This document shows, piece by piece, positions 6,210 to 56,447 of a DNA stretch of 64,000 nucleotides. The position numbers and the translations under genes were made by a program. The DNA comes from Elusimicrobia bacterium UBA6262 (GTDB taxonomy: Bacteria > CAYTYR01 > UBA6262), in NCBI GenBank assembly GCA_002441095.1, contig DJVG01000043.1, positions 2,254-66,253 of the forward strand, read 5' to 3'. Within the stretch, counting starts at the first letter, position 1, and every line of letters begins with the position of its first letter. The notes beneath the pieces were generated by a model. That model searched no databases, was not told the origin of the DNA, and was given only the letters and a program-made list of their open reading frames with translations.

Positions 6210-9200
6210 GTGCGTTTTGCTCCAGGTCTTTCAGCTTTTTCTTCAGCTCGATGATCCGTTTTTCGCGTTCCATAGTCACCTTGTTGAACCGGTCCAGTTC
6301 ATTTATCCGCTTTTTTAACTCTTCCTCCGCCCGCTTGCGTTCGGTGATATCCTGGTTCACTCCATAAGTATTGACTGTTCTTCCTTGCTGGTCTTTGATA
6401 ATAAAATAACGAACGGAAATATAGCCAACCTCTCCATGAGAGTCAATTATACGGTGCTCTAGCTGGTGGCTAAAATTAGAATCAGTGGCTTCAATGGCTC
6501 GTCGGGTTTCCAAGCTGACCACTTCAGCATCTTCGGGATGAACAAAACGCTTTACATAATCAGCAGATGACATAGTATAGCCGCCAGCCTGCTCGGCAGT
6601 CGTGTGGAAGATAGCGTAAAAAGAATCCGTGAAGGTAAATACATCGTTTACCACATCATATTCCCAGGGTCCCAGGCGCGCCATATACGCAGCATTTAAT
6701 AACTGGGCTTCGCTCACCCGTAACGCTGCCTCAGCCTGTCTGCGCTCAGTAATATCTACGGCAAAGCCGACAATCCCAATGATCTCTCCCTTTTCATTTC
6801 TATAGGGTATTTTATCGGTCTGGACCCATTTCAGCCCTTCTTGCGTCTGCATTGATTCTACGATGTTTAGTCTTGGTTGTCCTGAATCCATCACTGCCTT
6901 ATCATCCTGCCAGTATTTCTCCGCCTCTTCTTTAGGATAAATATCAAACACCGACTTCCCTTCCAGCTGCTCTTTGGTCAAGCCCATACTTTTAGCCATA
7001 GCCTTGTTGACACGGATGAAATTATTATTCTTATCCTTATAAAAGATCATTGCTGGCGTAGAATCCAGGATAGTACTTAGTTCCTGCTGTTGTTGTAGCA
7101 GAGTCTCTTCGTATTTTTTTCGCTCAGTGATATCCTGATTAACGCCATAAGTTTTGATCGTCTTTCCTTGCTGGTCTTTGACAATAAAAAAACGCACCGA
7201 AATATAACCAATTTCCCCATTAGCATCAATTTTACGGTGCTCCAGCTGACGGCTAAAATTAGAATCAGTTGTTTCAATGGCTTTGCGAGTTTCTTCACCG
7301 ACCACCGCTGCATCTTCTGGATGGACAAAACGCTTTACGTAATCTGCCGCCGACATAGTATAGCCGCCGACTTGCTCGGCTGTTGTGTGAAAAACAGTGT
7401 AAAAAGAATCAGTAAAAGTAAAAATATCTTTCACCACATCATATTCCCAGGGTCCCAAGTGCGCAATATTCAAAGCATTGGATAGCTGATCTTCATTCTG
7501 CTGGAGTGCTACTTCGGCTTTTTTACGTTCGGAAATATCGTGGGAAAATACGAACATTTGATCTGAATCCCTGAGAATCGTTACGCTAATCACAATATCG
7601 ATAATAGTTCCGTCTTTGCATTTATGTTTAGTTTCAAAGCGGTCACTGCCATTTTCCATAATTTTATGAATACGGGCTTGTATCTCTGCTGGTTTCTCGT
7701 TTACTTCCAAGTCAGCGATTTTCATTTTTTGCAATTCTACCCGGCTATAACCGATCATTTTACAATAAGAATCATTTACTTCAATGATATTGCCTTGCAT
7801 ATCCGTCAGCCAGAAACCGTCTATAGAGGTCTCAATTATAGCTTTATATTTCTGTTCCTGTTTCTGGCATTCGGTAATATCAGTAACCACCCCGATCAGT
7901 CCGGCGATTGTGCCGTCAGGATTATTATAAGTGGCTTTATTAAAGATGACTAAACGACGGGTACCGTCTGCCTGTTGAATACTGGATTCATAGGCTTGGG
8001 TTCCGGGATGGCTTAGTAATTCCTCGTCTTTCTGGTGGTAGACATCAGCTAGATCCTTAGGCGCGAGTTCATAGACAGATTTACCAATGATTTTTTCCTT
8101 TGCTCTTCCCAAGAAACGCTCAAAAGCCTGGTTACACCCTTGATAGATCCCTTGCGCGTCTTTGTAGAATACCGGATTAGGAATAGCTTCAAGCAATTGC
8201 TGGATAAATGCCAATTGGTTTGTCATTGCGGTTTTGGCTTTTTCTATATCAGTGACATCTTCTACGATACCGATAAAACCGGTAGGCTGGTTTTGGGCAG
8301 AGACTATCATTTTGATCTGCGTATGCACCCAACGAGTCTCATTCTGCTTATTGAGGATCCTAAACTTCAAGGATTCTTCTTTGCCTTGGGGCAGCGGTCC
8401 GGTAATGATATTCAAGGCCTCTTCCTGCTCTTCAGGATGGATCAGCTTTCTCCAGCCTTGTCCCAGACATTCATCAAAAGTCATTCCGGAAAATGAAATA
8501 AGTTTTTTATTTACATAAACAACTTCCCCTTGCATATTTAAAAAGAAAATGCCAACTGGAGCCAGATCACTTAAATTACGGAATTTTGCTTCACTCTCGT
8601 GCAAGACATTTTCTATTTTTTTGCGCTCGGTGATATCCCGGGCAAAACTTAAAATAAATTTTTCCCCGGCAAGCTCAACTATGCTGCTATTGATCTCTAC
8701 CGGGATAAGCTGCCCTTCCTTGGTCATATGTTCTGATTCAAAAAGGGCCTTGCCTTCTTTTAAGATTTTAGCCATTCTTTCCGGTACTAAAGCCGCATTT
8801 TGAGGAGAATCTATTTTTGTTGGTCCCAAGGTTAAAAGTTCGGTGCGGGTATAATGCAGCATTTGGCAAGCGCTCTGGTTAATATCTATAAACTGGGGAT
8901 TAACAGGATCCAAAGTAAGGAGATATATGGCTTCAGATGAACCTTCGATCAGGGAGCGGGATTTCTGCTCTGACTGCACCAGCCTCTGCCGCGCTTTTTC
9001 TTCCTCTGTCACATCACGGAAAATAGCCGCGACTTTATCGCCTACCGGATAAATAACATTATGCATATACTGGTCGTGTTGCGCGTCCTGGTAATGAACC
9101 AGCGGAATGATCTTTGACTCCCCTGACTGGGAACATTCCACGATAGCTTTATAGACCTCGGTTTTTTCCATTGCCGGGAAAAACTTTTTAATATCCTGGC

Positions 9201-10219: not shown

Positions 10220-12412
10220 TCACATCACAAAAAGCATCTCGCGATATTTCGGCAGGTCCCAATGCTCATCCGCGATCACGCCTTCCAGGTCATCGCTGTG
10301 TTTACGGATATGTTCCATCAGCGGTTTCAATTCATTAAAATATACAGCAGCTTTCTCTTTGCCTTCCAGGCTCCTGGCTTTTTCCAGTAATTTCACCAAA
10401 ATCTGGGTATTTTTCCGTAAATAATAGATCTTATTGGTGACATCAGCCAGGTGCCCTTTCAGATCCTCAAAAGCTTTCTCATCAATATTCAAGCCAATGG
10501 TATTTTTAAGGCTACTGATCTTTTCCAGGTTATTAGCCAATTGTCCCTGGTATTCCAGTCCCGCCGGGACAACTATCGAGTCAACCATTTCCCGCAGGGT
10601 GCTGGCTTCAATAGTGAGCACAATGTTATACATTTCAACCCAGATATTATATCGCGCCATTAATTCATCATGGCTTAATACGCCTTGTTTCTCGAAAATG
10701 GCAATATTTCCTTTTTCCGTGAAAGCAGCCAGGGCCTCAGCGGTAGAAGCGACATTGGCCAAACCGCGTTCTTTGGCCTCATAGAGCCATTCTGAAGAAT
10801 AATTATTACCTTCAAACCTGATATTTTTCGTTTCTTTAGCCAGCTGGGCAATTACTGCCACCACGGCAGATTCAAGATCCTTATTTCTCAGTTCTTTAGT
10901 TATCTCCTCAGCCACATAATTCAGCGAATCGGCAATGATCGTATTGATCACTGTCAATGGCCAGCTGATATTCTGCGATGAACCTACCGCCCGGAACTCA
11001 AACTTACTGCCGGTAAAGGCAAAGGGCGAAGTCCGGTTACGGTCAGTAGCGTCCTTATTCACTTTAGGCAGGCGTCCCACACCAAGGTCGATAATATCTT
11101 TTTTAGTGACTTTATGCGCAGTCCCGGCAACAATCGTGTCCAGCACCTTGGTCAGTTGTTCTCCCAGGAACACCGAAACAATCGCCGGCGGGGCCTCATT
11201 AGCTCCCAAGCGGTGTTCATTGCCGGCTGAGGCAATACTGGCCCGCAAAAGATCCGCATGCTTATGAACCGCCCGTAAAACTGCTACCAGCACAGCCAGG
11301 AATTGCAGGTTATCTTCCGGCGTCTGTCCGGGATTAAGCAGGTTATTTCCCTGGTCATCAGCCATGGACCAGTTCACATGCTTGCCACTGCCATTAATTC
11401 CGGCAAAAGGTTTCTCATGCAGCAGGCAAACCAGGTTATGGCGCAAAGCTACTTTTTTCATGATTTCCATCAGTAGCTGGTTATGATCAGCAGCAATATT
11501 GGATTCTTCAAAAATAGGAGCAAATTCAAACTGGTGCGGCGCTACTTCATTATGGCGGGTAGTGACGGGAATACCCATCTTAAAGGCTTCTACGGAAACT
11601 TCTTCCATATAATTCAGGACCCGCTCTTTGATCGAGCCAAAATACTGGTCCTCCAGCTGCTGCCCTTTCGGCGAAGAGGCCCCGATCAGCGTGCGTCCGG
11701 TCAGCATCAGGTCCTGCCGCAATTTGTAATAGTTATTATCGATCAGGAAATATTCCTGCTCCGGGCCGCAGGTAGAAACTACCTTGCTAATGTCCCGGCG
11801 GCTGAATAATTTAAGCAGTTTTTTCGCCGCTTTACTGAGCGCTTCATCAGAACGAAGCAAGGGCAGCTTTTTATCTAAAGCATACCCATGGTAGGAGACG
11901 AAAATGCTGGGAATACACAGTGTTTTCCCTAACCGGGTCTCGCTGATAAAAGCCGGGCTGGAAGGATCCCAGGCAGTATAGCCGCGCGCCTCGAATGTGC
12001 TCCTGATACCGCCGCTGGGGAAAGAACTGGCATCTGGCTCACCCAGGATCAGTTTGGATCCGGAGAACTTTTCCACGACCTTGCCGGCACTATGCAGGGA
12101 TATAAAGCTGTCATGTTTTTCGGCGGTCAGTCCGGTCATAGGCTGGAACCAGTGGGCATAATATATTGCTCCTTTTTCCACGGCCCAGTCTTTCATAGCC
12201 CCGGCAATTTCATCAGCCTCTTTCATACTGATGGTACTGCCCCCGGCTAACCAGCGCTTGAAAGAAATAAAGGTTTTTTTACCGATCCGTTTCTGCATTT
12301 CGCTGATACTGAAAGTATTAGAACCAAAGTACCCGGAAACTTTTTTTGGTTTTTCAATTTTTGTTAAAGGAACACTCTCGATCTTGTCCACCACTTTTTG
12401 CCTAACGCACAT
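10220..12412 (-). CDS. glnN: glutamine synthetase type III (GlnN)
   Basis: 730 aa (GSIII size); N-terminal SGYFGSNTF...YAHWFQPMTGLTAEKHDSF and central NGSGKHVNWS, C-terminal regions characteristic of Bacteroides-type GSIII. Confidence 0.85.
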   Translation of the reverse strand: MCVRQKVVDKIESVPLTKIEKPKKVSGYFGSNTFSISEMQKRIGKKTFISFKRWLAGGSTISMKEADEIAGAMKDWAVEKGAIYYAHWFQPMTGLTAEKHDSFISLHSAGKVVEKFSGSKLILGEPDASSFPSGGIRSTFEARGYTAWDPSSPAFISETRLGKTLCIPSIFVSYHGYALDKKLPLLRSDEALSKAAKKLLKLFSRRDISKVVSTCGPEQEYFLIDNNYYKLRQDLMLTGRTLIGASSPKGQQLEDQYFGSIKERVLNYMEEVSVEAFKMGIPVTTRHNEVAPHQFEFAPIFEESNIAADHNQLLMEIMKKVALRHNLVCLLHEKPFAGINGSGKHVNWSMADDQGNNLLNPGQTPEDNLQFLAVLVAVLRAVHKHADLLRASIASAGNEHRLGANEAPPAIVSVFLGEQLTKVLDTIVAGTAHKVTKKDIIDLGVGRLPKVNKDATDRNRTSPFAFTGSKFEFRAVGSSQNISWPLTVINTIIADSLNYVAEEITKELRNKDLESAVVAVIAQLAKETKNIRFEGNNYSSEWLYEAKERGLANVASTAEALAAFTEKGNIAIFEKQGVLSHDELMARYNIWVEMYNIVLTIEASTLREMVDSIVVPAGLEYQGQLANNLEKISSLKNTIGLNIDEKAFEDLKGHLADVTNKIYYLRKNTQILVKLLEKARSLEGKEKAAVYFNELKPLMEHIRKHSDDLEGVIADEHWDLPKYREMLFVM

Positions 12413-12590
12413 GGTTTTACCCCCATTGGTCAGAGTATCAGGATATCAGGATATCAGGCTATCAGGTTTTCCTGATAATCTGATTACCTGATACCCTGTT
12501 GTCCTGATCCATAATCTCCTGATATTCTCACCCTGATTACCTGATATTCTGATATCCTTATTTATTTTTCTATTATACTTTATTGCCTGG
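12413..12590. repeat. ATCAGG x4 / CCTGAT x8 opposed-repeat element (long imperfect palindrome) in glnN upstream region
   Basis: gtatcaggatatcaggatatcaggctatcagg...cctgataatctgattacctgataccctgttgtcctgatccataatctcctgatattctcaccctgattacctgatattctgatatcc. Confidence 0.7.
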
Positions 12591-15149
12591 TTAAATGCAA
12601 GCGTTTCCCTTTTTCTTATAGTTAACCATCTTCAGGATTTCAAACCAGAGAATACTAAAGATCCCAGCCGCCGTACAGATCACAAAATCAATGAAGTGAA
12701 GCTGCGAAAAGTGAAACAACCTTTTCAAGAACGGTACATTCAGGCTCAAGCCCAGGAATAACAAGGCTCCTGTTAAAACCAGCCAGGAAGCCGTATTAGG
12801 AGCGCGCAACGTGGTTATGATCGACTTTGACCAGGAACGGTTCGTGAAGATCAGGGCTATATTGGCTACGATCAACGTGGTAAAGGTCATGGCCCTGGCT
12901 TCCATATCACCCAATCCCCGGAATAAAGCTATGGCATAAACCGCTAAGACCACGACTAAAACAGTTATACCTTGCAGCAGGCTGATACCAATAGTACGCC
13001 GGTTGAACAGTGACTGTTTAGGATCCCGCGGCGGGCGGTTCATGATCTGTGGTTCCTCTTTTTCCGCTTCAAAGACTATCGAACACGCCGGGTCTATAAT
13101 TAGCTCCAGGAAAACAATATGTACCGGTAGTAAGACCAGGGGCCATTTAAGTAAAACCGGTATCAGGGACAGGCCGGCGATCGGCACATGAATAGCAAAA
13201 ATATAAGCCATGGCTTTTTTAATATTATCAAAGATCCTTCTGCCCAGCCTGACCGCTGAGACAATAGAAGAAAAATCATCATCCAGTAATACCAGTCCCG
13301 CAGCCTCCCTGGCGACATCGGTCCCGCGTCCGCCCATGGCAATACCAATATGGGCCGCTTTCAGCGCCGTAGCGTCATTAACCCCGTCACCGGTCATGGC
13401 GACGATCTCGCCATTGGCTTTCAACGCATTGACCAGTAATAATTTTTGTTCTGGCATGACCCGGGCAAAGATACTGGTTTTCTTGATCCGTTCACATAGT
13501 TCCGCAACACTTAATTTTTCCAGTTCCGGTCCGGTGATATAATCATCAGCTTTATGCAAACCGATCTGGCGGGCAATATTCATAGCTGTACCAGGATAAT
13601 CACCAGTGATCATTACGACGCGGATACCGGCAGTATAACATTCCTTGATGGATTCAGCCACAGTCGGGCGCACCGGATCCGTCAGTCCAACCAGCCCGAC
13701 AAATTCAAAAAAGAAATCATGTTGTTGTCCTGGTAATGACTCTTCCTGGAAATGGGCTTTGGCCACGCCAATGATCCTCAATCCCTCGTCAGCCATGGTA
13801 TTTATCTGCCCACTTAATTCAGCCGCCGCTGTCTGATCCATATGGCACAGGTCAATGACCGCTTCTGGCGAACCTTTGGCCGCAATAATATAGTCTTTCC
13901 CGTCAGGAGATTTCCAGACATGGGACATCGCCAGCAATTCCTGTGACAAGGGATATTCCTGGACCAGGGTCCAATTATAATGCAAATGTTCTGTATTGGA
14001 AAGAGTTTTGGTCCCTAGATCCCTGATGGCTTTTTCCATCGGGTCAAAAGGATCATGCTGGCTGGCCAGGATGGCAAACTCTACGATCTCATGGAATTTT
14101 TCCGGTAGCCTTCCCTTATACTCCGGATCAACGGCAAAGTACTTGCTTTGGGCACACACTTTTCCGACCGTCATCCGGTTCATGGTCAGGGTCCCGGTTT
14201 TGTCCACACAGAGCACCGTGGCTGCTCCCAAAGTTTCAATGACCGGTACCCTCCGGGTTAAAACATTTTTTTGGGAAATACGCCAGGCTCCTAACGCCAG
14301 GAAAATGGTCAGGACCACCGGGAATTCTTCCGGCAGCATGGCCATCGCCAGGGTAATGCCGGCCAGAAACCCGTGCAGGAAACTGCCGGTAGTCAAACCA
14401 TAGGCGACAATAACGATCGAACATAGTACTATACCGCTAATAGCTAAATTTTTAACTACCCTGCCGGTTTCTTTCTGCAAGGCTGTTTCTTCTTCTTCTA
14501 TGGTTTGCAGGGATTTACCGATCTTGCCGATCTCTGTATTCAGGCCTGTACCCTTTACCCGGGCGATCCCTTGACCGCGCACGACCAGTGTTGCTGAATA
14601 AACAAACGGCGTATCTTCGCCACCGGGACGGGACATTTCCTCATCAGATTTTTCGGCAGTTTTCCTAACCGGCACTGACTCACCGGTTAACAAGGATTCA
14701 TCCACAGAAAGAGCGCTGGACCAAAGCACCATGGCATCAGCCGGTATACGGTCACCTTCAGCCAGGATCAGGATATCTTCACACACCACTTCCCGGCCGG
14801 CAATACGTAATTGTTTACCATCCCTGATCACCAGTGCCCTGGGGCTGGTGATATCACGCAAAGCCTCCAAAGCCCGCTCAGTTTTGCGTTCCTGGTACAG
14901 GGTAATACCCATCACCACAAAAACAAAACCCAGCAGCATTAATGCTTCCTGTTTATCACCCAATAACCAGTAAATTACCCCGCAGGCCACCAGCAGCAGG
15001 AACATCGGTTCGCTCAATATTTCAAAAGCGATCTTCCAGACACTGCGCCGACGACTGGACGGGAGTTCATTATATCCTTCTGCCCCCAATCTGGCCTGCG
15101 CTTCTTTTTGGGACAGTCCGGTAATATTTTTTATTTCACTGTAATCCAT
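12591..15149 (-). CDS. cation-transporting P-type ATPase (P2-type, Ca2+/Mg2+-like)
   Basis: 852 aa; DKTGTLT phosphorylation motif, TGES actuator-like motif, MTGDGVNDA hinge, 8-10 TM helices. Confidence 0.85.
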   Translation of the reverse strand: MDYSEIKNITGLSQKEAQARLGAEGYNELPSSRRRSVWKIAFEILSEPMFLLLVACGVIYWLLGDKQEALMLLGFVFVVMGITLYQERKTERALEALRDITSPRALVIRDGKQLRIAGREVVCEDILILAEGDRIPADAMVLWSSALSVDESLLTGESVPVRKTAEKSDEEMSRPGGEDTPFVYSATLVVRGQGIARVKGTGLNTEIGKIGKSLQTIEEEETALQKETGRVVKNLAISGIVLCSIVIVAYGLTTGSFLHGFLAGITLAMAMLPEEFPVVLTIFLALGAWRISQKNVLTRRVPVIETLGAATVLCVDKTGTLTMNRMTVGKVCAQSKYFAVDPEYKGRLPEKFHEIVEFAILASQHDPFDPMEKAIRDLGTKTLSNTEHLHYNWTLVQEYPLSQELLAMSHVWKSPDGKDYIIAAKGSPEAVIDLCHMDQTAAAELSGQINTMADEGLRIIGVAKAHFQEESLPGQQHDFFFEFVGLVGLTDPVRPTVAESIKECYTAGIRVVMITGDYPGTAMNIARQIGLHKADDYITGPELEKLSVAELCERIKKTSIFARVMPEQKLLLVNALKANGEIVAMTGDGVNDATALKAAHIGIAMGGRGTDVAREAAGLVLLDDDFSSIVSAVRLGRRIFDNIKKAMAYIFAIHVPIAGLSLIPVLLKWPLVLLPVHIVFLELIIDPACSIVFEAEKEEPQIMNRPPRDPKQSLFNRRTIGISLLQGITVLVVVLAVYAIALFRGLGDMEARAMTFTTLIVANIALIFTNRSWSKSIITTLRAPNTASWLVLTGALLFLGLSLNVPFLKRLFHFSQLHFIDFVICTAAGIFSILWFEILKMVNYKKKGNACI

Positions 15150-15172: not shown

Positions 15173-16000
15173 CTACTTCCTGATCTGGCGGTAAAGGAAA
15201 GAACTTATAAACAATACCAGGCTCACCAGGACAATGGTAGCCCCGCTGGGCCAGTCCAGGAAAAAGGAAAGCATAATACCTGTCCAGACTGAAACCACCG
15301 CCACTACTACCGCCACCAGCATCGTCATCCTGAATCCTTTGGCAACCTGCAGTGCAGTGACAGTAGGCAGTATTAGCAAAGCCGATACCAGCATTATGCC
15401 CACTACTTTCATGGCTAGTACTACGGTAATAGCAGTCAAAACCACCAGCATTTTATTTACGGCCTTGGTATTTATGCCTTCAGCCTGGGCGCATTCTTCA
15501 TCAAAAGTGACTGCCACCAGGTCATAATAAAAAAAAGCCACCAGAATAATAACTATCGTCGCCAAGCCGATGGACATCCATACCTCAGTCTTAGTGATAG
15601 CCAGGATATTGCCAAACAGGTAACTGAACAAGTCAATATTAAAGCCCTTGGTTATGCTCACCAGCAGGATCCCGATAGCAATACCCAGCGCTGAAACAAT
15701 GCCGATAGCCGCATCTCCGTAAAGGTACTGCGCTTCAGTCAGTTTCATGATCCCTAGAGAACTAAGGACCACCAAAGGCAAAGCTACATACACTGGAGTG
15801 ACATTAAAGAACAAACCTAAGGCTAAAGCGCCAAAAGTCACATGTGACAGGCCATCCCCGATCAGGGACAAGCGGCGCAGCACCAGGAACACACCCAGAA
15901 TAGCGCACAAAGCCGCAATGAATGAACCGGCAATGACTGCCCGCTGCATAAAGCCGTAACTTAGAAATTTAAATAAATCCATTGGGGAACCTTTTTTCAA
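15173..16000 (-). CDS. metal (Zn/Mn) ABC transporter permease, ABC-3 / ZnuB family
   Basis: 275 aa polytopic membrane protein, N-terminal FLSYGFMQRAVIAGSFIAAL... typical of ZnuB/MntB. Confidence 0.75.
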   Translation of the reverse strand: MKKGSPMDLFKFLSYGFMQRAVIAGSFIAALCAILGVFLVLRRLSLIGDGLSHVTFGALALGLFFNVTPVYVALPLVVLSSLGIMKLTEAQYLYGDAAIGIVSALGIAIGILLVSITKGFNIDLFSYLFGNILAITKTEVWMSIGLATIVIILVAFFYYDLVAVTFDEECAQAEGINTKAVNKMLVVLTAITVVLAMKVVGIMLVSALLILPTVTALQVAKGFRMTMLVAVVVAVVSVWTGIMLSFFLDWPSGATIVLVSLVLFISSFLYRQIRK

Positions 16001-16133
16001 AATAAGTTATAAACTACGGGTATCAGGTAATCAGGGGACCAGGGAGTGGATATCAGGAAATCAGGACAGCAGGTCTTACCTGATACTCTGATAACCTGAT
16101 TCCCTCTACCTGATAACCTGTTATCCTGATGTC
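16001..16133. repeat. ATCAGG / CCTGAT opposed-repeat element (same family as 12413-12590)
   Basis: ggtatcaggtaatcaggggaccagggagtggatatcaggaaatcaggacagcagg...cctgatactctgataacctgattccctctacctgataacctgttatcctgatgtcc; lies between znuC-like stop and znuB-like start. Confidence 0.7.
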
Positions 16134-16901
16134 CTAACTTTTCGGCGCATCATGCCGATGGCAGATAAGATGCTGGGCATATTCACCGAAGTACTCGGTA
16201 ATGTCCGGGGAAGCGCAAAAATTATCAAAACCGCCAAAAAAGATGATCTTTTTATCCAGGTACAGCATTTTCGCCGCGTATTTCCCGATCGTGCCAATAT
16301 CATGCGTGATCAATAAAATAGTTACTTTTCTTTTTTCATTGAATTCTTTCAGCACCGCGTAAAATCTTTCCCGGGTTTCCGGGTCAAGCGCAGTAGTCGG
16401 CTCATCAAGGATCAATAATTCCGGTTCACCGGCTAAGGCCCTGGCGGCCATGGCGCGCTGCTGTTGCCCGCCGGAGAGCTCGCTGATAAGCTTATGCTTA
16501 ATGTCCCTGATCTCCAGCAGGGCCAGTGCCTTATCGATCGCGATTTCATCGGTGCGGGATATCTGCTTGGGGAATTTTTTGCCGGCTAAAAGGCCGAATG
16601 ATACTACTTCCCTGACAGTAGCCGGGAACTGCGGATTAAAGGAAGTTAATTTTTGCGGTAAATACCCTATCCTCTGCCACTCCTTGAACTGGCTTTGCCT
16701 CGTACCCAAAATACTTATTTTTCCCTGGGTCGGCAGGAGCAGGCCCAGGATAGTCCGGACTAGGGTGGTTTTGCCAGAGCCATTGGGGCCAACAATACCG
16801 ATATAATCCCCGGCTTGCGCGGTAAAAGAGATCCCGCTCAAAACTTCATTCGCCTGGTATTTTACCGTGACCTGGTCTACGGCTAAAGAAATTACTGACA
16901 T
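16134..16901 (-). CDS. metal ABC transporter ATP-binding protein (ZnuC-like)
   Basis: Walker A GPNGSGKTT, signature LSGGQQQR, Walker B LLILDEPT. Confidence 0.85.
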   Translation of the reverse strand: MSVISLAVDQVTVKYQANEVLSGISFTAQAGDYIGIVGPNGSGKTTLVRTILGLLLPTQGKISILGTRQSQFKEWQRIGYLPQKLTSFNPQFPATVREVVSFGLLAGKKFPKQISRTDEIAIDKALALLEIRDIKHKLISELSGGQQQRAMAARALAGEPELLILDEPTTALDPETRERFYAVLKEFNEKRKVTILLITHDIGTIGKYAAKMLYLDKKIIFFGGFDNFCASPDITEYFGEYAQHLICHRHDAPKS

Positions 16902-17758
16902 GACAATCCTAGTTTTAAATTATTTAAATTAGCTTTCATAATATCAATAAAACTTATCCCCTTATCCAGTTCTTCCCTGGATACATTATGGGCAGCGGAA
17001 AGTTCCAGCAGACGTACTCCGGTCTCTTGCGCGAGGGTTTCGGCTACCCGCGGAGAGACCAGTTCTTCATAAAAAATATATTTCACTTTATTTTGCCTGA
17101 TCGTGTCAACCAGCTCAGCCAGGTTCCTGGGCGTTGGCTCCGCGTCCGGAGAGAATCCTTTATAGGCAGCTATGTATTTTAAATGGTAACGCCTGGCCAG
17201 GTAACCAAAAGCAAAATGCCCGCTCTGGATCAGCACTTTATCCCGGCAGCCGGATAATGCTCCCTGGTATTCGGTATCCAGTTCGGCCAGCTTTTTATTA
17301 TATTGCCTGGCTGCGGCCTGGTATAGATTCCGGTTGGCCGGGTCCCTGGCAGCTAAGACATCGCGAATGCGGTTAACCATGATCATAGCTTTGGTAAAAT
17401 CCAGCCAGGTATGCGGATCATTGTCTGTGAAACCGCTGCTCGCTTCCAGCACTATTAACTTCTTATTATCGATCCCGCGGATAAATTTTTCCGCCCAGGG
17501 TTCCATCTGCCTGCTGGTATAGATAAATACATCCGCCTCTGTTACCCTGACCACATCACCGGCAGACGGTTCGTAACTATGCGCTTCCACTCCGGGAGGC
17601 AGCAGCAGGATCACGGAGATATTATCCTGGCCGACATTGCGCGCAAAATCATAGAGCGGGAATAATGTTGTTATGACGGTTTGTTTTTTTTCAGCGGCGA
17701 TCAGGTTGGAATTCAAGAAGAAAACCAAGAGACACAAAAAAGAAAGTTTTTTGTACAT
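16892..17758 (-). CDS. metal ABC transporter substrate-binding lipoprotein/periplasmic protein (ZnuA/TroA family)
   Basis: 288 aa, signal peptide, TTLFPLYDFARNVG and HxH / E/D metal-ligand-containing TroA-like layout; operon with ZnuC/ZnuB-like genes. Confidence 0.7.
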   Translation of the reverse strand: MYKKLSFLCLLVFFLNSNLIAAEKKQTVITTLFPLYDFARNVGQDNISVILLLPPGVEAHSYEPSAGDVVRVTEADVFIYTSRQMEPWAEKFIRGIDNKKLIVLEASSGFTDNDPHTWLDFTKAMIMVNRIRDVLAARDPANRNLYQAAARQYNKKLAELDTEYQGALSGCRDKVLIQSGHFAFGYLARRYHLKYIAAYKGFSPDAEPTPRNLAELVDTIRQNKVKYIFYEELVSPRVAETLAQETGVRLLELSAAHNVSREELDKGISFIDIMKANLNNLKLGLSCQ

Positions 17759-19923: not shown

Positions 19924-20017
19924 AAAATCCTTTTGGATTACACAGATTACGAAAAGCGATTACACAGATAGAACGAAAGCTAGTAATCAGTGTAATCTCT
20001 CTTAATAATCGGTGTAA
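19924..20017. repeat. GATTACACAG x2 ... CAGTGTAATC / CGGTGTAATC inverted motif array (same family as 10102-10219)
   Basis: ggattacacagattacgaaaagcgattacacagatagaac...gtaatcagtgtaatctctcttaataatcggtgtaatcat. Confidence 0.65.
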
Positions 20018-20326
20018 TCATTTGCTAGATTTGATCATTATGAGCATCATTTTAAATTTCTTGGTGGCTATTAAGGCATGCGGGCGACCCGCCGGCAGTT
20101 TTACCAGGTCCCCCTTGACCGCGCGTTGCGGTTTGCCAGCGATAGTTATTTCGGCTTCCCCGTCAACAAGATAAACCAGGGCATCGAAGGGAGCTGTATG
20201 CTCGCTTAATCCTTGCCCTTGATCGAATGAAAAAAGGGTCACGGTCCCGGTGTCTTTTTTAATCACGGTACGGCTGACCACCGCCCCTTTCTGGTAGGCT
20301 ATCATCTTATTTAACTGCATTTTCAT
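20018..20326 (-). CDS. cupin-domain protein
   Basis: 102 aa; GEAEITIAGKPQRAVKGDLVKLPAGRPHAL cupin beta-barrel motif. Confidence 0.55.
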   Translation of the reverse strand: MKMQLNKMIAYQKGAVVSRTVIKKDTGTVTLFSFDQGQGLSEHTAPFDALVYLVDGEAEITIAGKPQRAVKGDLVKLPAGRPHALIATKKFKMMLIMIKSSK

Positions 20327-20560
20327 CTTCCCTTTACCTGAAGTATCCTGGCTTCCCGCAGTGCCAATTGATCCTCCCTTTTTTAAGTGTGCCAGTGCTC
20401 GAGTTGCCAGTCAGAACAAGAACAGTGACCAGGTGTAAGTTTTGGAAGTAAGTTTGGTCTGAGGTCTATGGGTATTAGGCTCTAACCCACAACTTCAGAC
20501 CTACTTCCATACCTACTTCTACAACCTTCACCCTATCACTACTGATTCTCGTATTTACTG

Positions 20561-53782: not shown

Positions 53783-54910
53783 TTATTCCTTATCTAAATG
53801 CCTTATCCAAATAGCCGGCTCCGTAGCCAGGTTTACGCGTTTTTCCTCGGTGCACTCTTCGCCATTGCAAGTAGTGATTATTTTTACTACTGGACGAAGA
53901 ATATTATTACTATTCAGGGCGACCACCCTGGCTAATTCCTTGGTGTTCAACTCCACCAGGCTGCCGATCGGGAAAATACCGATCTTGTTTATCAGCACCT
54001 TGATCAATTTAGGATCATAAGCGCTTTTATTTTTCAGTATCTCCTGGATCGTTTCCCGGGCCTGGAATTCGGTGCGGTAGGTTCTCCGGTGCATCATGGC
54101 TTCATATATATCCAGGATACCGACTATAGAACTATATTCATGTATCTGGCTGCCCTTCAAGCCATCGGGATAACCGGAGCCGTCCAGATGTTCATGGTGT
54201 TGCCGCGCCACTTCAAAAACTACATCATCCAGGCCTTTGATACTGGATAACATCTTGGCCGCAAACAAGGTATGGTTTTTTGTCCTCTCAAAATCTTCTT
54301 TGCTTAATTTATTGGCCTGGCTTATTATTTCCAGGTAATGAGCCATCCCCACATCATGCAATAAAGAGGCGGTCCCGAGTTCTTTTAACCGGTATGGTTC
54401 GTATCCTAATTCCAGGCCGATCATTATGGATAAAATACAGACATTGGTTACATGACAAAATATATATGTGGTTTGCGAAGAAACATCCGGATTTAACGCC
54501 AGTTCGGTCATTTTCTCCGGATGCGCCCTGGCTAGATCGATTATCTTGTCTACGATCGCGGAGATCCGGTGAATATCAATAAGCTCATAGATCGCATCTT
54601 CTTTCATTATTTCTTGCATTAAGGCCAGCGCATCATTATAGGCTTTTTCACATTCAGTGAAAGCAGCGACATCTATATTTTGTCTTATAGGCTGCGGGCT
54701 GGGCGTAATTATTTCTGCTTCTGCCGGTGCGGGAGCAGGTTGAAAAACAGTTTCATGATGAGCAACTATGGGAGTGTCTAGTGGAGGAGCGGCGGAGACA
54801 GGTAATGGCTGGATACCCTTATCTGTTTTTTTTCTTTCCTCGATCTTTTTGAATATATCCGACATTTTAACCATGATAGTATTATATATACCATAAAATG
54901 TTCTTGTCAA
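53783..54910 (-). CDS. HD-GYP domain c-di-GMP phosphodiesterase
   Basis: HDVGMAHYLE ... HHEHLDGSGYPDGL. Confidence 0.85.
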   Translation of the reverse strand: MTRTFYGIYNTIMVKMSDIFKKIEERKKTDKGIQPLPVSAAPPLDTPIVAHHETVFQPAPAPAEAEIITPSPQPIRQNIDVAAFTECEKAYNDALALMQEIMKEDAIYELIDIHRISAIVDKIIDLARAHPEKMTELALNPDVSSQTTYIFCHVTNVCILSIMIGLELGYEPYRLKELGTASLLHDVGMAHYLEIISQANKLSKEDFERTKNHTLFAAKMLSSIKGLDDVVFEVARQHHEHLDGSGYPDGLKGSQIHEYSSIVGILDIYEAMMHRRTYRTEFQARETIQEILKNKSAYDPKLIKVLINKIGIFPIGSLVELNTKELARVVALNSNNILRPVVKIITTCNGEECTEEKRVNLATEPAIWIRHLDKE

Positions 54911-55001
54911 GCAAGCAAGTAAAAAGGGAATTAGTTTTTACCCGATATTCTGGTATCCTGATAACCTCTTCCTGATCTCCTGATTCCCTGATATCCTCAA
55001 T
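54911..55001. repeat. CCTGAT x5 repeat element (same family as 12413-12590, one arm only)
   Basis: atattctggtatcctgataacctcttcctgatctcctgattccctgatatcctc. Confidence 0.6.
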
Positions 55002-56447
55002 TTACATCTTTGGCAGGTTCGTCTTTCCCATCAGGTATTTATCTATATTATAAGCCGCGGTACGGCCTTCGGATATGGCCCAGACTATCAGGGACTGGCC
55101 CCGGTGCATGTCCCCGGCAGTAAAAATCTTCTGAACTGAGGTTTGGTGGTTCTCCCCGGCCTTGACATTGCCCCTCTGGTCCAGTTCTACTTTCAGCTTT
55201 TCCAACAATCCTTTTGGTTCCGGGTGCAGGAACCCAAGCGCTAACAGTACCAGGTCTGCCTGGATATTGAACTCACTGCCGGCTATGTCCTTAGGTGATA
55301 CGCAACCCTTGGCATCTTTACCTGACCAATCGATACGGACGCATTCCAAATGCTTGACCTGTCCTTTTTCCCCGCTGAATTTCCTGGTCTGGATGGCCCA
55401 CTCCCTTTCCCCGCCTTCCTCATGGCTGGAAGAAGTCTTCAACAGCGGCGGATATTTGGGCCAGGGGAATTGCCCGGTCCGGCATTCCGGCGCTGGCGGC
55501 AGCAATTCGATCTGCACTACACAGCTGGCTCCCTGGCGATGGGCAGTGCCCACACAGTCTGCACCAGTATCACCGCCGCCGATCACTACCACTTTTTTGC
55601 CTTTAGTATCGATCAATTGGCTGGCTGGTATTTTTTCCCCGCTCACTTTTTTATTGGATTGGATCAGGTAATCCATGGCAAAATAAATTCCTGCCAATTC
55701 CCGGCCCGCGATTTTAAAGTCACGCGGCTGACGTGAGCCACCCGCGAGGCAGACAGCGTCAAATTCCTTCAACAGTTTAGCCACAGGATAATCAATTCCC
55801 GCATTTACATTGGTGCGGAATTCGATCCCTTCTTTTTCATAGATCTCCAGCCGGCGGTCCAGGATACTCTTTTCCAGCTTGAAGTCAGGAATACCGTAAC
55901 GCAAAATACCGCCTGGTTTGGCGTCTTTTTCAAAAACCGTCACCTTATGCCCGGCTTTGTTCAACTGGTCAGCCGCAGCCAGCCCGGCTGGTCCGGACCC
56001 GATCACTGCTACTTTCTTGCCGGTACGTTTCAGCGGCGGTTCAGGTTTGATCAGTCCCATTTTGAAAGCATATTCAATAATAGCCAGCTCATTCTCGCGG
56101 ATCGTGACCGGGTCATCATTAATACCCAGCACGCAGGCAAACTCACACAGAGCCGGGCACAAACGACCGGTAATTTCCGGCAGGTTGTTGCAGGCGTGCA
56201 GGAGTTCAATGGCCCGTTCCCAATGGGAGCGGTAAACCAGGTCGTTCCAGTCAGGAATATAATTACCGATCGGACAACCCCAATGGCAGAACGGCGTCCC
56301 GCAATCCATGCACCGCGAAGCCTGCTCCTGCGTTACTTCTTCTTTCCGCGGTACAACCACGTCACGGTAGTCTTTGGTCCGTACGCACACCGGCCGGTAT
56401 TTTGTTTTTAGCCGTTTTACTTTTAAGAAACCCTTTGGATCACCCAT
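55002..56447 (-). CDS. gltD: glutamate synthase (NADPH) small subunit
   Basis: VAVIGSGPAGLAAADQL dinucleotide-binding motif, N-terminal Cys cluster, 481 aa. Confidence 0.85.
   Translation of the reverse strand: MGDPKGFLKVKRLKTKYRPVCVRTKDYRDVVVPRKEEVTQEQASRCMDCGTPFCHWGCPIGNYIPDWNDLVYRSHWERAIELLHACNNLPEITGRLCPALCEFACVLGINDDPVTIRENELAIIEYAFKMGLIKPEPPLKRTGKKVAVIGSGPAGLAAADQLNKAGHKVTVFEKDAKPGGILRYGIPDFKLEKSILDRRLEIYEKEGIEFRTNVNAGIDYPVAKLLKEFDAVCLAGGSRQPRDFKIAGRELAGIYFAMDYLIQSNKKVSGEKIPASQLIDTKGKKVVVIGGGDTGADCVGTAHRQGASCVVQIELLPPAPECRTGQFPWPKYPPLLKTSSSHEEGGEREWAIQTRKFSGEKGQVKHLECVRIDWSGKDAKGCVSPKDIAGSEFNIQADLVLLALGFLHPEPKGLLEKLKVELDQRGNVKAGENHQTSVQKIFTAGDMHRGQSLIVWAISEGRTAAYNIDKYLMGKTNLPKM

What the first reader, a model, noticed from the sequence alone, without database searches (positions are those of the whole stretch)
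16001..16133. Second ATCAGG/CCTGAT palindromic element inside the znuACB-like operon
The element has the same five ATCAGG then five CCTGAT organisation as 12413-12590. It lies between the znuC-like ATPase stop and the znuB-like permease start, a position where a 133-bp gap is unusual for a co-transcribed transporter operon. The insertion position suggests mobility or an intra-operon attenuator or processing site.
Basis: seen in the sequence. Interest (0 to 1): 0.5.

Follow-up and report, generated by a model that had tools for sequence, protein, structure and literature searches.

The report
Inserted palindromic octamer repeat in operon
The 116-base stretch between two genes of a zinc-transporter operon is one copy of a scattered, hairpin-forming DNA repeat built from ATCAGG units; close relatives lack it at this spot, so it was inserted there, and nothing suggests it is a purpose-built regulator.

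Summary
Window 16018-16133 holds six ATCAGG-like units (four exact), a 5-nt loop, then six CCTGAT-like units (four exact), spaced 8 nt apart. It lies on the minus-strand operon ZnuA, ABC ATPase, ABC-3 permease. The true gap is 151 nt (15983-16133), because the permease starts at ATG 15982.

It belongs to one family with 12427-12558 and a one-armed copy at 54950-54998. The family has a canonical ~115-135 nt form: 3 units, linker, 3 units, loop, then the mirror image. A pattern expected about twice by chance found more than 113 stretches in MAGs labelled as many phyla.

The elements are almost always intergenic. They show no target-site duplication, no covariation and no strand bias.

Six close relatives have a 12-14 nt junction here. 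Three carry the same element, two of them in the opposite orientation. Two carry an unrelated hairpin repeat that also occurs elsewhere in this window.

Best reading: a mobile, REP/REPIN-like non-coding repeat inserted into the znuC-znuB junction, transcribed as a -54.6 kcal/mol hairpin with no terminator features. Mobility is supported. The attenuator or processing idea has no support. The mobilising or binding factor is unknown.

The parts
16018..16133 (.). E2: palindromic tandem-octamer element (the finding). Its reverse complement has the same ATCAGG-then-CCTGAT layout.
   Evidence: Sequence; repeats; family profile hit 16015-16137 at E = 1e-33; RNA fold of the sense strand -54.6 kcal/mol, z = -4.5.
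16020..16073 (+). ATCAGG arm: two modules of three octamer units (ATCAGG, ATCAGG, ACCAGG / ATCAGG, ATCAGG, AGCAGG) joined by the linker GAGTGGAT (16044-16051).
   Evidence: The 3 + linker + 3 layout is shared with 22 aligned elements from other organisms.
16074..16078 (+). Loop TCTTA. It is TAAGA on the sense strand. The same loop is seen in the orthologous-site copy of L204, in the opposite orientation.
16079..16130 (+). CCTGAT arm: CCTGAT, TCTGAT, CCTGAT / CCTGAT, CCTGTT, CCTGAT with the linker TCCCTCTA (16101-16108). This linker is not the complement of the other linker.
   Evidence: Asymmetric linkers are a feature of the family.
15983..16017 (-). Non-repeat tail between the element and the permease start. 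It contains an AAGG Shine-Dalgarno-like motif about 9 nt before ATG 15982.
   Evidence: Sequence. All filled alleles keep an AAGG about 10 nt before the ATG.
16134..16901 (-). znuC-like ABC ATPase gene. Its stop codon TAG (16136-16134) overlaps the outermost degenerate unit of the element.
   Evidence: Pfam ABC_tran 2.6e-31. The C-terminus HRHD-APKS* differs from the empty-allele HRHDKH*.
15173..15982 (-). znuB-like ABC-3 permease gene.
   Evidence: Pfam ABC-3 1.1e-71. The start codon is fixed by the homologue N-termini MDLFKF.
16892..17758 (-). [quoted passage not shown]
   Evidence: Pfam ZnuA 1.9e-74.
12427..12558 (.). E1: second copy of the family, with unequal arms. It lies in the 5' UTR of the type III glutamine synthetase gene, downstream of the promoter-like TTGCAT-17-TATAAT at 12600-12572 (minus strand).
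   Evidence: The site is empty in relatives L196 and L200.
54950..54998 (.). E3: one-armed copy (six units, 3 + linker + 3, with no complementary arm) between a gltD-like gene and an HD-domain gene.

Best explanation
E2 is one copy of a dispersed, non-coding, palindromic repeat family that was inserted into an ancestrally compact (about 14 nt, translationally coupled) znuC-znuB junction.

Shown:
- The family is built from tandem ATCAGGNN octamers, arranged as 3 units, linker, 3 units, then a variable loop, then the mirror image on the other strand.
- Copies sit almost only in intergenic spacers, next to unrelated housekeeping genes, in many MAGs.
- Copies come and go between close relatives, occur in both orientations at the same site, and can be replaced by unrelated hairpin repeats.
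- There is no target-site duplication and no transposase nearby.

Inferred:
- The element is mobilised in trans, REP/REPIN-like. The enzyme would recognise the conserved hexamers and/or the imperfect hairpin, and could be an HUH (Y1) transposase or another unidentified enzyme.
- The long stem is a by-product of inverted arrays of a conserved hexamer, not a selected RNA structure.
- In the operon transcript the element forms a stable but interrupted hairpin (6-bp blocks separated by mostly unpaired 2-nt spacers) without a U-tract. Transcription probably reads through.
- The likely consequence is loss of ATPase-permease translational coupling. A further possible consequence is a barrier to mRNA decay that changes the upstream-to-downstream cistron ratio, as REPs do in malEFG.
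- The permease keeps its own AAGG ribosome-binding site.
For: 1. It is a real family, found at three places in the window. These are in MAGs labelled Planctomycetota, Chloroflexota, Omnitrophota, Desulfobacterota-type lineages, WOR-1/WOR-3, Aegiribacteria, Auribacterota, Acidobacteriota and Gemmatimonadota, and in the window's own closest named relative CAYTYR01.

2. The architecture is shared. Unit spacing is 8 nt (265 times), 16 or 24 nt, plus a series at 8k+6/7 nt caused by one linker. A 22-sequence alignment gives the 3-linker-3 / loop / 3-linker-3 consensus.

3. The location is intergenic in 111 of 119 cases: 67 between co-directional genes, 15 divergent, 13 convergent, 16 with only one flanking gene called. 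Often there are 0-40 nt to each gene. Flanking genes are unrelated housekeeping genes.

4. There is presence/absence at this very junction.
- Gap of 12-14 nt in L197, L199, L201, L202, L203 and the P0010 contig.
- The same element in L204, L206 and (degenerate) L198.
- An unrelated hairpin repeat in L196/L200 and L205.
- That unrelated repeat also occurs at window 20424-20540.

5. Orientation differs at the same site. The window's antisense strand aligns to L204 at 91% and to L206 at 85%, against 73% and 72% for the sense strand.

6. There are recent copies. Three copies 94-97% identical over 156 nt lie at unlinked sites in one Omnitrophota MAG.

7. The sequence, not the pairing, is conserved. 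74.9% of cells are paired, but covariation is below every shuffle (500 of 500). Hexamer columns are near-invariant, while spacer columns pair at about chance (61 of 172).

8. RNA folding shows no strand bias (28 versus 29).

9. There is no terminator or promoter match at E2.

10. There is no target-site duplication: the mean flank longest-common-substring is 4.36 against 4.26 for random pairings, n = 109.

11. No transposase or recombinase domain is found in any ORF of 150 aa or more in the window.
Against: - No mobilising enzyme or autonomous parent element was found, so 'mobile' rests on population and comparative patterns, not on a mechanism.
- The filled alleles share flank features: an ATPase C-terminal extension HRHD-xPK... 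and a permease N-terminus M-x-LF. These differ from the empty alleles (HRHDKH*, MGxWH) and do not follow overall gene identity. Allele exchange by recombination, or one old insertion followed by in-place turnover, cannot be separated from repeated insertion.
- Conservation of the hexamer across phyla, without covariation, would also fit a host protein-binding function.
- MAG bins can be contaminated, so the breadth of the phylum list is only as good as the bins.
- Any effect on znu expression is untested.
Confidence: 0.7

Rival explanations
1. Host-function protein-binding arrays. The dispersed elements are genome-wide binding sites for a conserved DNA-binding protein. This could be nucleoid-associated or a global regulator, for example a ribbon-helix-helix or IHF/HU-type protein that polymerises on tandem 8-bp sites, with the two arms bound symmetrically. 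The hairpin potential would be incidental, and the element at znuC-znuB is one of many such sites.
For: - The hexamer is near-invariant across MAGs labelled as different phyla, while spacers, loop and unit number vary, and there is no covariation.
- The periodicity is a strict 8 bp, with a 30-32 bp super-period of about three helical turns.
- One-armed copies exist: E3 in the window, L004:6307, L036:5076 and L063:3300.
- Paired opposite-strand arrays of tandem octa- or heptanucleotides in Geobacter metallireducens were proposed to be global-regulator (IHF/HU) sites (PMC2700814).
- From established knowledge: MetJ binds tandem 8-bp metboxes, and the omega repressor binds direct or inverted WATCACW heptads.
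Against: - Sites are gained, lost, flipped and replaced by unrelated hairpin families between close relatives, so no site-specific function is conserved.
- Near-identical copies at unlinked loci indicate proliferation.
- No candidate protein was identified.
- An 8-bp spacing puts successive sites on different faces of B-DNA.
- The two readings are not exclusive: a mobile element may carry binding sites.
Confidence: 0.2
2. Selected RNA element of the operon. The hairpin is kept at this junction because it acts in the mRNA, either as a decay barrier or RNase processing site, or as an attenuator that sets the ZnuA/ZnuC to ZnuB ratio.
For: - The sense RNA folds to -54.6 kcal/mol, z = -4.5.
- The same junction carries long palindromes of unrelated sequence in many lineages: 11 of the 23 gaps of 75 nt or more have z below -3.
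- In L196 the replacement hairpin is much more stable on the sense strand, through G-U pairs: -47.9 (z = -3.4) against -33.9 (z = -0.25).
- There is a classical precedent, from established knowledge: REPs in malE-malF and hisJ-hisQ stabilise upstream mRNA.
Against: - There is no U-tract or terminator-like site and no Rfam family.
- Family-wide there is no sense/antisense difference and no covariation.
- Orientation differs between orthologous copies.
- Six close relatives manage with a 12-14 nt junction.
- The same family sits in unrelated contexts, including divergent and convergent spacers.
Confidence: 0.12
3. Promoter-carrying insertion. The CCTGAT(A) units act as -35-like hexamers and, together with an A/T-rich tail, create an outward promoter that gives the downstream gene (here znuB) its own transcription start.
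For: - In the Omnitrophota copies a conserved 36-nt tail gives CTGATA-17-TATAAC immediately upstream of three unrelated genes (read from the sequence).
- L198 has CTGATA-17-TATAAT between the element and the permease ATG (sequence).
- The scan flags CTGATA-16-CATAAT and CTGATA-16-TATTAT inside E1.
Against: - In the window's E2 the best arrangement is only CTGATT-17-TATAAC (8 of 12), and the scan did not report it.
- Hexamer matches at this level are common by chance: 14 found against 10.5 expected in the region.
- The organism's promoter consensus is not known.
Confidence: 0.08
4. Chance low-complexity sequence or an assembly artefact.
For: Palindromes can break or mis-join assemblies. Contig L002 starts inside the element, 16 nt before the loop.
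Against: - The enrichment is far beyond shuffles.
- The sequence is identical in independent assemblies.
- Orthologous copies exist in L204, L206 and L198.
- More than 113 family members are found elsewhere.
Confidence: 0.01

Closest known systems
REP / BIME / REPIN elements (repetitive extragenic palindromes, mobilised by RAYT Y1 transposases)
   Same: - Short, non-coding, high-copy and extragenic.
- Forms an imperfect hairpin from two inverted halves, as a REPIN does.
- No target-site duplication.
- Classically found in intercistronic spacers of ABC-transporter operons (malE-malF, hisJ-hisQ), where they alter mRNA stability.
- Within-genome subfamilies exist.
- Such elements serve as insertion targets for other elements. 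Nested small hairpins are seen in L198.
   Different: - Each arm is a tandem array of 8-nt units, not a single 20-40 nt palindrome.
- There is no terminal GTAG or CGTC tag (PMC3733652).
- No RAYT gene was found or could be tested.
- The same unit sequence is shared across MAGs labelled as different phyla, whereas most REP families are confined to one or a few species.
Paired tandem octa-/heptanucleotide 'global regulator binding sites' of Geobacter metallireducens (classes 1-3: GTTGCTYN, TCTCCGTS, MTYCTGA; Aklujkar et al. 2009, PMC2700814)
   Same: - Three to five tandem 7-9 nt units on one strand, paired with the same array on the opposite strand at a variable distance.
- Tens of copies per genome.
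- Intergenic, including intra-operon sites (between proB and proA).
- Unique to one of two sister species.
- Insertion sequences land next to them.
   Different: - The unit sequences differ. MTYCTGA resembles CCTGA(T) only loosely.
- Those were described in one genome only, whereas this family is spread over many MAGs.
- The IHF/HU binding proposed there was never tested.
- No 3 + linker + 3 module or asymmetric linker was reported.
TAACTGA heptamer direct repeats of Beggiatoaceae, Cyanobacteria and Bacteroidetes (MacGregor 2015, PMC4679880), and cyanobacterial STRR heptamer arrays (own knowledge)
   Same: - A short unit is repeated in tandem in intergenic DNA, close to gene starts.
- The same unit is shared by distant phyla with no evident transfer mechanism.
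- Function is unknown.
   Different: - Those are almost always direct arrays: 169 direct sets and 1 indirect in one genome.
- Here the inverted pairing of two arrays is the rule.
MITEs such as Correia/NEMIS elements
   Same: - About 100-150 nt, with inverted ends and hairpin potential.
- Inserted in intergenic and intra-operon sites.
- Can carry promoter-like hexamers and affect neighbouring genes.
   Different: - No target-site duplication was detected.
- There are no defined terminal inverted repeat with a parent IS.
- The ends fade out as degenerate repeat units.
Operator or centromere arrays of ribbon-helix-helix proteins (MetJ 8-bp metboxes; omega WATCACW heptads; ParG 8-bp-spaced boxes). 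Own knowledge; resemblance of architecture only.
   Same: Tandem 7-8 bp units in direct and inverted runs. The unit core WATCA is shared with omega heptads.
   Different: - Those are single-locus operators next to their own genes, not dispersed repeats.
- No such protein is linked to these elements.

Membership tests
REP/REPIN (RAYT-associated) | Unit is a 20-40 nt imperfect palindrome carrying a conserved terminal GTAG or CGTC tag | tested here: not met
   The arms are tandem ATCAGGNN octamers. The only GTGG/GTAG-like motif is the internal linker (TAGTGGGT), not a terminal tag.
REP/REPIN (RAYT-associated) | High copy number, extragenic, no target-site duplication | tested here: met
   Three copies in 64 kb. 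111 of 119 are intergenic. Flank repeats are no longer than in random pairings.
REP/REPIN (RAYT-associated) | A Y1 (HUH) transposase gene flanked by the repeats somewhere in the genome | not testable with these tools
   No transposase domain is present in any ORF of 150 aa or more in the window, nor among the recurrent neighbours of 113 loci. Whole genomes could not be scanned.
MITE (DDE-transposon derived) | Target-site duplication flanking the element | tested here: not met
   Mean longest flank repeat is 4.36 nt against 4.26 nt for shuffled pairings, n = 109. The filled-versus-empty comparison for E1 shows no clear duplication. Duplications of 2-3 bp cannot be excluded.
MITE (DDE-transposon derived) | Terminal inverted repeats shared with an autonomous IS | tested here: inconclusive
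   The arms are inverted arrays, but no gene-containing version was seen. The search pattern allowed loops of at most 32 nt.
Geobacter-type paired tandem oligonucleotide arrays | Three to five tandem 7-9 nt units, paired with the same array on the opposite strand, multicopy and intergenic | tested here: met
   description in PMC2700814.
Geobacter-type paired tandem oligonucleotide arrays | Unit consensus GTTGCTYN, TCTCCGTS or MTYCTGA | tested here: not met
   The unit here is (W)ATCAGGN.
Intrinsic terminator / attenuator | G+C-rich stem followed by a U-tract, with alternative structures or a leader peptide | tested here: not met
   No terminator-like site at E2. The sequence after the stem is ACCCGUAGUUUAUAAC.
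Any curated RNA family (Rfam 15) | Match at the gathering score | tested here: not met
   Zero matches in the window. Only sub-threshold microRNA hairpin noise appears at E-value mode.
Structured RNA in general | Compensatory base changes and a preferred strand | tested here: not met
   The covariation score of 0.060 is below the shuffled mean of 0.081; 500 of 500 shuffles are at least as high. The sense-versus-antisense fold comparison gives 28 versus 29.

The most novel reading that the evidence does not exclude
The ATCAGG arrays are recognition sites of a single, still unidentified protein family shared by distantly related, mostly uncultured bacteria. This could be a domesticated HUH-type enzyme or a polymerising DNA-binding protein. 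The conserved asymmetric linker (GCAGG facing CCCAC on one strand, which equals tandem G-T wobbles on the other) would mark the active strand. The elements would then be a cross-phylum, horizontally spreading genome-structuring or mobile system of a new type, rather than many unrelated REP-like families.
Probability: 0.2. Interest if true: 0.75.

Novelty: new variant of a known kind. Interest (0 to 1): 0.45.

Why it matters
For this operon the result is mostly ordinary. A selfish or near-neutral hairpin repeat has split a translationally coupled ATPase-permease junction, as REPs do in classical ABC-transporter operons.

The wider family is more interesting, for five reasons:
- The same 6-nt unit, the same 8-nt period and the same 3 + linker + 3 module recur in MAGs labelled as many phyla, without covariation. 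This points to a conserved recognising protein that nobody has named.
- The linker asymmetry is conserved.
- Copies flip and are swapped for other hairpin families at the same site within a narrow clade.
- At least three such families crowd neighbouring spacers of this genome.
- These elements break metagenome assemblies, inflate intergenic gaps and can mislead operon and regulatory-RNA predictions in uncultured lineages.

A census of the family would give a handle on how small non-coding repeats spread between phyla.

Tried and rejected
- Rfam at gathering and at E-value thresholds: nothing beyond microRNA-hairpin noise.
- HIP1 (GCGATCGC), to test a cyanobacterial origin: 0 hits.
- A recurrent partner gene next to the elements: all-against-all clustering of 1600 ORFs from 113 loci gave only generic families and one syntenic Planctomycetota locus. 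Pfam of 10 neighbours gave housekeeping genes.
- A transposase in the window: none in any ORF of 150 aa or more.
- Strand-specific RNA structure: no bias.
- Orientation of the asymmetric linker relative to transcription: 15 versus 8, not significant.
- Target-site duplications: none.
- Conservation at a syntenic site in three Planctomycetota (L006, L042, L098): uninformative, because the flanks are themselves 89-91% identical.
- Viral contigs as a vehicle: only one real element, in two related contigs. The reversed arrangement gave one probable chance hit, too few to compare.
- Plasmid and phage collections: no match.
- Literature search for ATCAGG/CCTGAT repeats: nothing relevant.
- The supplement of the Geobacter paper does not hold the aligned sequences as text.
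- A Zur box or other znu-specific operator was rejected, because the same element sits at unrelated loci.
- The DnaA-box and IHF-consensus resemblances (TATCAGgnnaTCA against WATCARNNNNTTR, 8 of 9) were noted by eye but not pursued. They are too weak to count as evidence.
- The Methanospirillum hit and 7 other hits inside ORFs are treated as chance matches.
Full report
**1. What is in the sequence**

The genes around the finding are on the minus strand. Pfam identifies ZnuA (17758-16892), an ABC ATPase (16901-16134), an ABC-3 permease and then a P-type ATPase (15149-12591) and a type III glutamine synthetase (12412-10220).

The mechanical ORF list starts the permease at TTG 16000. Homologues begin MDLFKF, which corresponds to ATG 15982. 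The ATPase-permease gap is therefore 151 nt (15983-16133).

Positions 16018-16133 read, on the + strand: GT ATCAGG TA ATCAGG GG ACCAGG GAGTGGAT ATCAGG AA ATCAGG AC AGCAGG TCTTA CCTGAT AC TCTGAT AA CCTGAT TCCCTCTA CCTGAT AA CCTGTT AT CCTGAT. That is six units, a 5-nt loop and six complementary units. Four units on each side are exact. The period is 8 nt, with a 30-nt super-repeat.

The window holds 114 ATCAGG/CCTGAT against 35 +/- 6 expected. The excess lies in three clusters. A profile built from elements of other organisms finds exactly these three: 16015-16137 at E = 1e-33, 12430-12560 at 9e-21 and 54908-54999 at 6e-16. The third is a single arm.

**2. The family**

I scanned one genome per species with the pattern ATCAGGNNATCAGG-N(2-32)-CCTGAT-N(2-32)-CCTGAT. 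It has 24 fixed bases, and my own estimate is about two chance hits in 596 Gb.

The hits come from MAGs labelled as follows:
- Planctomycetota (Pirellulales, Phycisphaerae, Sedimentisphaerales);
- Chloroflexota;
- Omnitrophota;
- Desulfobacterota-type lineages;
- WOR-1, WOR-3, Aegiribacteria and Auribacterota;
- Acidobacteriota, Gemmatimonadota and others.

Eight hits inside ORFs, including the only cultured archaeon, are probably chance.

Spacing between exact units is 8 nt (265 times), 16 or 24 nt. There is also a series at 8k+6/7 nt, caused by one linker.

An alignment of 22 full-length copies gives the canonical form of about 115-135 nt: three units, linker, three units, a variable loop of 3-40 nt, then the mirror image. 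E2 is 86% identical over 114 nt to an element at an unrelated locus of another MAG (L016).

The linkers are not complementary. Either ATGCAGGAT faces ACCCACTA (22 elements), or, in the reverse complement, TAGTGGGT faces ATCCTGCAT (18 elements). Palindromic combinations are rare: 2, plus 3 mixed. On one strand this is a pair of C-A/A-C mismatches. On the other strand it is tandem G-U/U-G wobbles, so the element has a defined polarity.

**3. Sequence, not pairing, is conserved**

On the 22-sequence alignment 74.9% of cells form pairs. Covariation is lower than in every one of 500 shuffles. The hexamer columns are nearly invariant. The 2-nt spacers pair at about chance level (61 of 172 cells, summed from the per-pair table).

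RNA folds of 57 elements lying between co-directional genes are no more stable on the sense strand than on the antisense strand (28 versus 29; Wilcoxon p = 0.30).

The stem is therefore a consequence of inverted arrays of a conserved hexamer, not a structure kept by compensatory change.

**4. Where the elements sit**

Of 119 elements, 111 are intergenic. Often there are 0-40 nt to each neighbouring gene. The breakdown is 67 between co-directional genes, 15 divergent, 13 convergent and 16 with only one flanking gene called.

Neighbouring genes are unrelated housekeeping genes. No ORF of 150 aa or more in the window has a transposase or recombinase domain.

Flanks show no target-site duplication: the mean longest shared word is 4.36 nt against 4.26 nt for random pairings.

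In one Omnitrophota MAG three copies are 94-97% identical over 156 nt. The match includes a 36-nt non-repeat tail, and the copies lie directly upstream of three unrelated genes. This indicates recent proliferation.

**5. The znuC-znuB junction in relatives**

In 73 operons at 56-64% permease identity the median gap is 23 nt. Of these, 43 are 40 nt or less and 23 are 75 nt or more. None of the large gaps holds an ATCAGG element. Eleven are strongly palindromic (z below -3) with unrelated sequence, and several are tandem-unit repeats or palindromes themselves: L178 has GGGGCTAG units and L126 has AATAACCA units.

Closer relatives were found by protein search and their contigs were read. Gene order is conserved in the longer contigs L196, L197 and L199 and in the P0010 contig: FGGY kinase ... 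GH26, ZnuA, ATPase, permease, then P-type ATPase and (where the contig reaches it) GSIII. L198 differs upstream of ZnuA and has a degraded P-type ATPase.

The junction falls into three states:
- Empty, 12-14 nt (TGA-aaggaatccctgtt-ATG): L197 and L199 (92-93%), L201 and L202 (89%), L203 (87%) and the P0010 contig (85%).
- The same ATCAGG element: L206 (94%), L204 (84%) and, degenerate with a nested small hairpin, L198 (85%, named 'Elusimicrobia bacterium').
- An unrelated hairpin repeat: L196/L200 (93%) and L205 (87%).

That unrelated repeat is 86% identical over 84 nt to window 20444-20526, a different spacer. So a second repeat family occupies the same junction in sister lineages.

The window's element is inverted relative to L204 and L206. 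Its antisense strand aligns at 91% and 85%, against 73% and 72% for the sense strand. L204 also keeps a partial arm identical to the window's stop-codon-proximal end.

Filled alleles share an ATPase C-terminal extension (HRHD-xPK...) and a permease N-terminus M-x-LF. Empty alleles have HRHDKH* and MGxWH. This split does not follow overall identity. Allele exchange, or an old insertion with in-place turnover, therefore cannot be told apart from repeated insertion.

The second copy, E1, behaves alike. It lies between a conserved TTGCAT-17-TATAAT promoter-like site and the GSIII start codon. Its site is empty in L196 and L200, differently filled in L197, L199 and L203, and filled by an ATCAGG-type element in L198.

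**6. How it most likely works**

Shown:
- It is a dispersed non-coding repeat.
- It is gained and lost at this junction.
- It occurs in both orientations.
- There is no target-site duplication and no local transposase.
- There is no terminator, promoter or Rfam signature.

Inferred:
- Mobilisation is in trans, by an enzyme that recognises the hexamer arrays and/or the imperfect hairpin. The closest analogy is REP/REPIN with RAYT, which also leaves no duplication.
- In the mRNA the element forms a -54.6 kcal/mol interrupted hairpin that is read through. It removes the translational coupling seen in the 14-nt alleles.
- By analogy with REPs in malEFG, it may protect the upstream cistrons from 3'-exonucleases.
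- The permease retains an AAGG motif about 9 nt before its ATG.

Rivals:
- A host protein-binding array. This is favoured by the conserved hexamer, the strict 8-bp period, the one-armed copies and the Geobacter precedent (PMC2700814). It is weakened by the turnover between close relatives.
- A selected RNA hairpin. This is favoured by the recurrence of unrelated palindromes at this junction and by the G-U-rich, sense-biased hairpin of L196. It is weakened by the lack of strand bias, the lack of covariation, the flip in orientation, and the relatives that have a compact junction.
- An outward promoter. CTGATA-17-TATAAY is seen in some copies, but only 8 of 12 positions match in E2.

**7. Comparison with what is known**

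The kind is known: extragenic palindromic repeats. The nearest described architecture is the paired tandem octa- and heptanucleotide arrays of G. metallireducens. Cross-phylum tandem heptamers (TAACTGA; PMC4679880) are a looser parallel.

Membership of REP/REPIN fails on the unit structure and the terminal tag, and cannot be tested for the RAYT gene. Membership of MITEs fails on the target-site duplication.

No paper in the searched library mentions ATCAGG/CCTGAT repeats.

I rate it a new variant of a known kind. As an explanation of this operon gap it is ordinary. As a family it is moderately interesting.

**8. Limits**

- Phylum labels come from MAG bins.
- The genome scan was truncated and was selected for the ATCAGG-then-CCTGAT arrangement. 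The reversed arrangement could be checked fairly only in viral contigs, where counts were too low to be useful.
- Whole genomes could not be searched for a partner protein.
- All statements about expression are inference.

Noticed in passing
window 20424-20540: A second, unrelated palindromic repeat family, with a G/T-rich arm then a C/A-rich arm on the sense strand, lies between the FGGY kinase stop and a small cupin gene. The sense RNA folds to -47.4 kcal/mol (z = -5.3). It is 86% identical over 84 nt to the element that fills the znuC-znuB junction in relative L196. L196 has no gap at the FGGY/cupin junction.
   Followed up: partly
window 19936-20019: A third palindromic family, built from GATTACAC / GTGTAATC units with a 22-nt super-repeat (hairpin -32.9 kcal/mol, z = -7.3), lies between the cupin gene and the deaminase gene. 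Similar CTGTGTAATC units occur in L198 around 6560-6620. Three families therefore occupy four neighbouring spacers within 9 kb.
   Followed up: partly
window 12572-12600 (minus strand) and 12427-12558: A near-consensus promoter-like site, TTGCAT-17-TATAAT, overlaps the end of the P-type ATPase gene and is conserved in all relatives examined. The E1 repeat lies between it and the GSIII start codon, that is, in the presumed 5' UTR. The site is empty in L196 and L200.
   Followed up: partly
window 54950-54998: A one-armed copy of the ATCAGG family (3 units + linker AAGAGGTT + 3 units on the minus strand, with no complementary arm) lies between a gltD-like oxidoreductase gene and an HD-domain gene. 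It cannot form the hairpin.
   Followed up: partly
L198:5543-5575 and L198 about 7460-7500: A very small hairpin (TTGCTGATCCCGA-loop-TCGGGATCAA) is nested inside both ATCAGG-type elements of this relative. It looks like a still smaller mobile repeat that targets other repeats.
   Followed up: no
L069:5077-5232, L069:6880-7035, L033:4322-4477: Three copies in one Omnitrophota MAG are 94-97% identical. They carry a conserved 36-nt tail that forms CTGATA-17-TATAAC and ends 15-25 nt before the start codons of three unrelated genes (ROK regulator, bifunctional nuclease, nucleoside phosphorylase). This may be a portable promoter.
   Followed up: partly
L198:6560-7590: In the 'Elusimicrobia bacterium' relative, the P-type ATPase gene between the permease and GSIII is reduced to uncalled fragments, so it is probably a pseudogene.
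   Followed up: no
L178:1754-1840, L128:3785-3855, L126 gap upstream of 3071: Other lineages carry the same architecture with different units: inverted arrays of tandem units about 8 nt long, such as GGGGCTAG, GTTCAAGG and AATAACCA. Two of these sit at the same ATPase-permease junction. The architecture is therefore more general than the ATCAGG family.
   Followed up: partly
window 10220-12412, 57039-61592, 55002-56447, 62815-63960: The window carries a nitrogen-assimilation set: a type III glutamine synthetase, a second partial GSIII-like gene, and the glutamate synthase large and small subunits. It also carries a large polysaccharide-biosynthesis cluster (22.8-47.4 kb). Nearly all genes are on the minus strand, and GC skew is uniformly negative.
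   Followed up: no
L012, L035, L115, L196 (MAG GCA_964441745.1): The closest named relative of the window (93% permease identity, same gene order) is labelled 'uncultured Clostridia bacterium'. The next closest (85%) is labelled 'Elusimicrobia bacterium'. The outer-membrane beta-barrel gene in the shared locus makes the Clostridia label doubtful.
   Followed up: no
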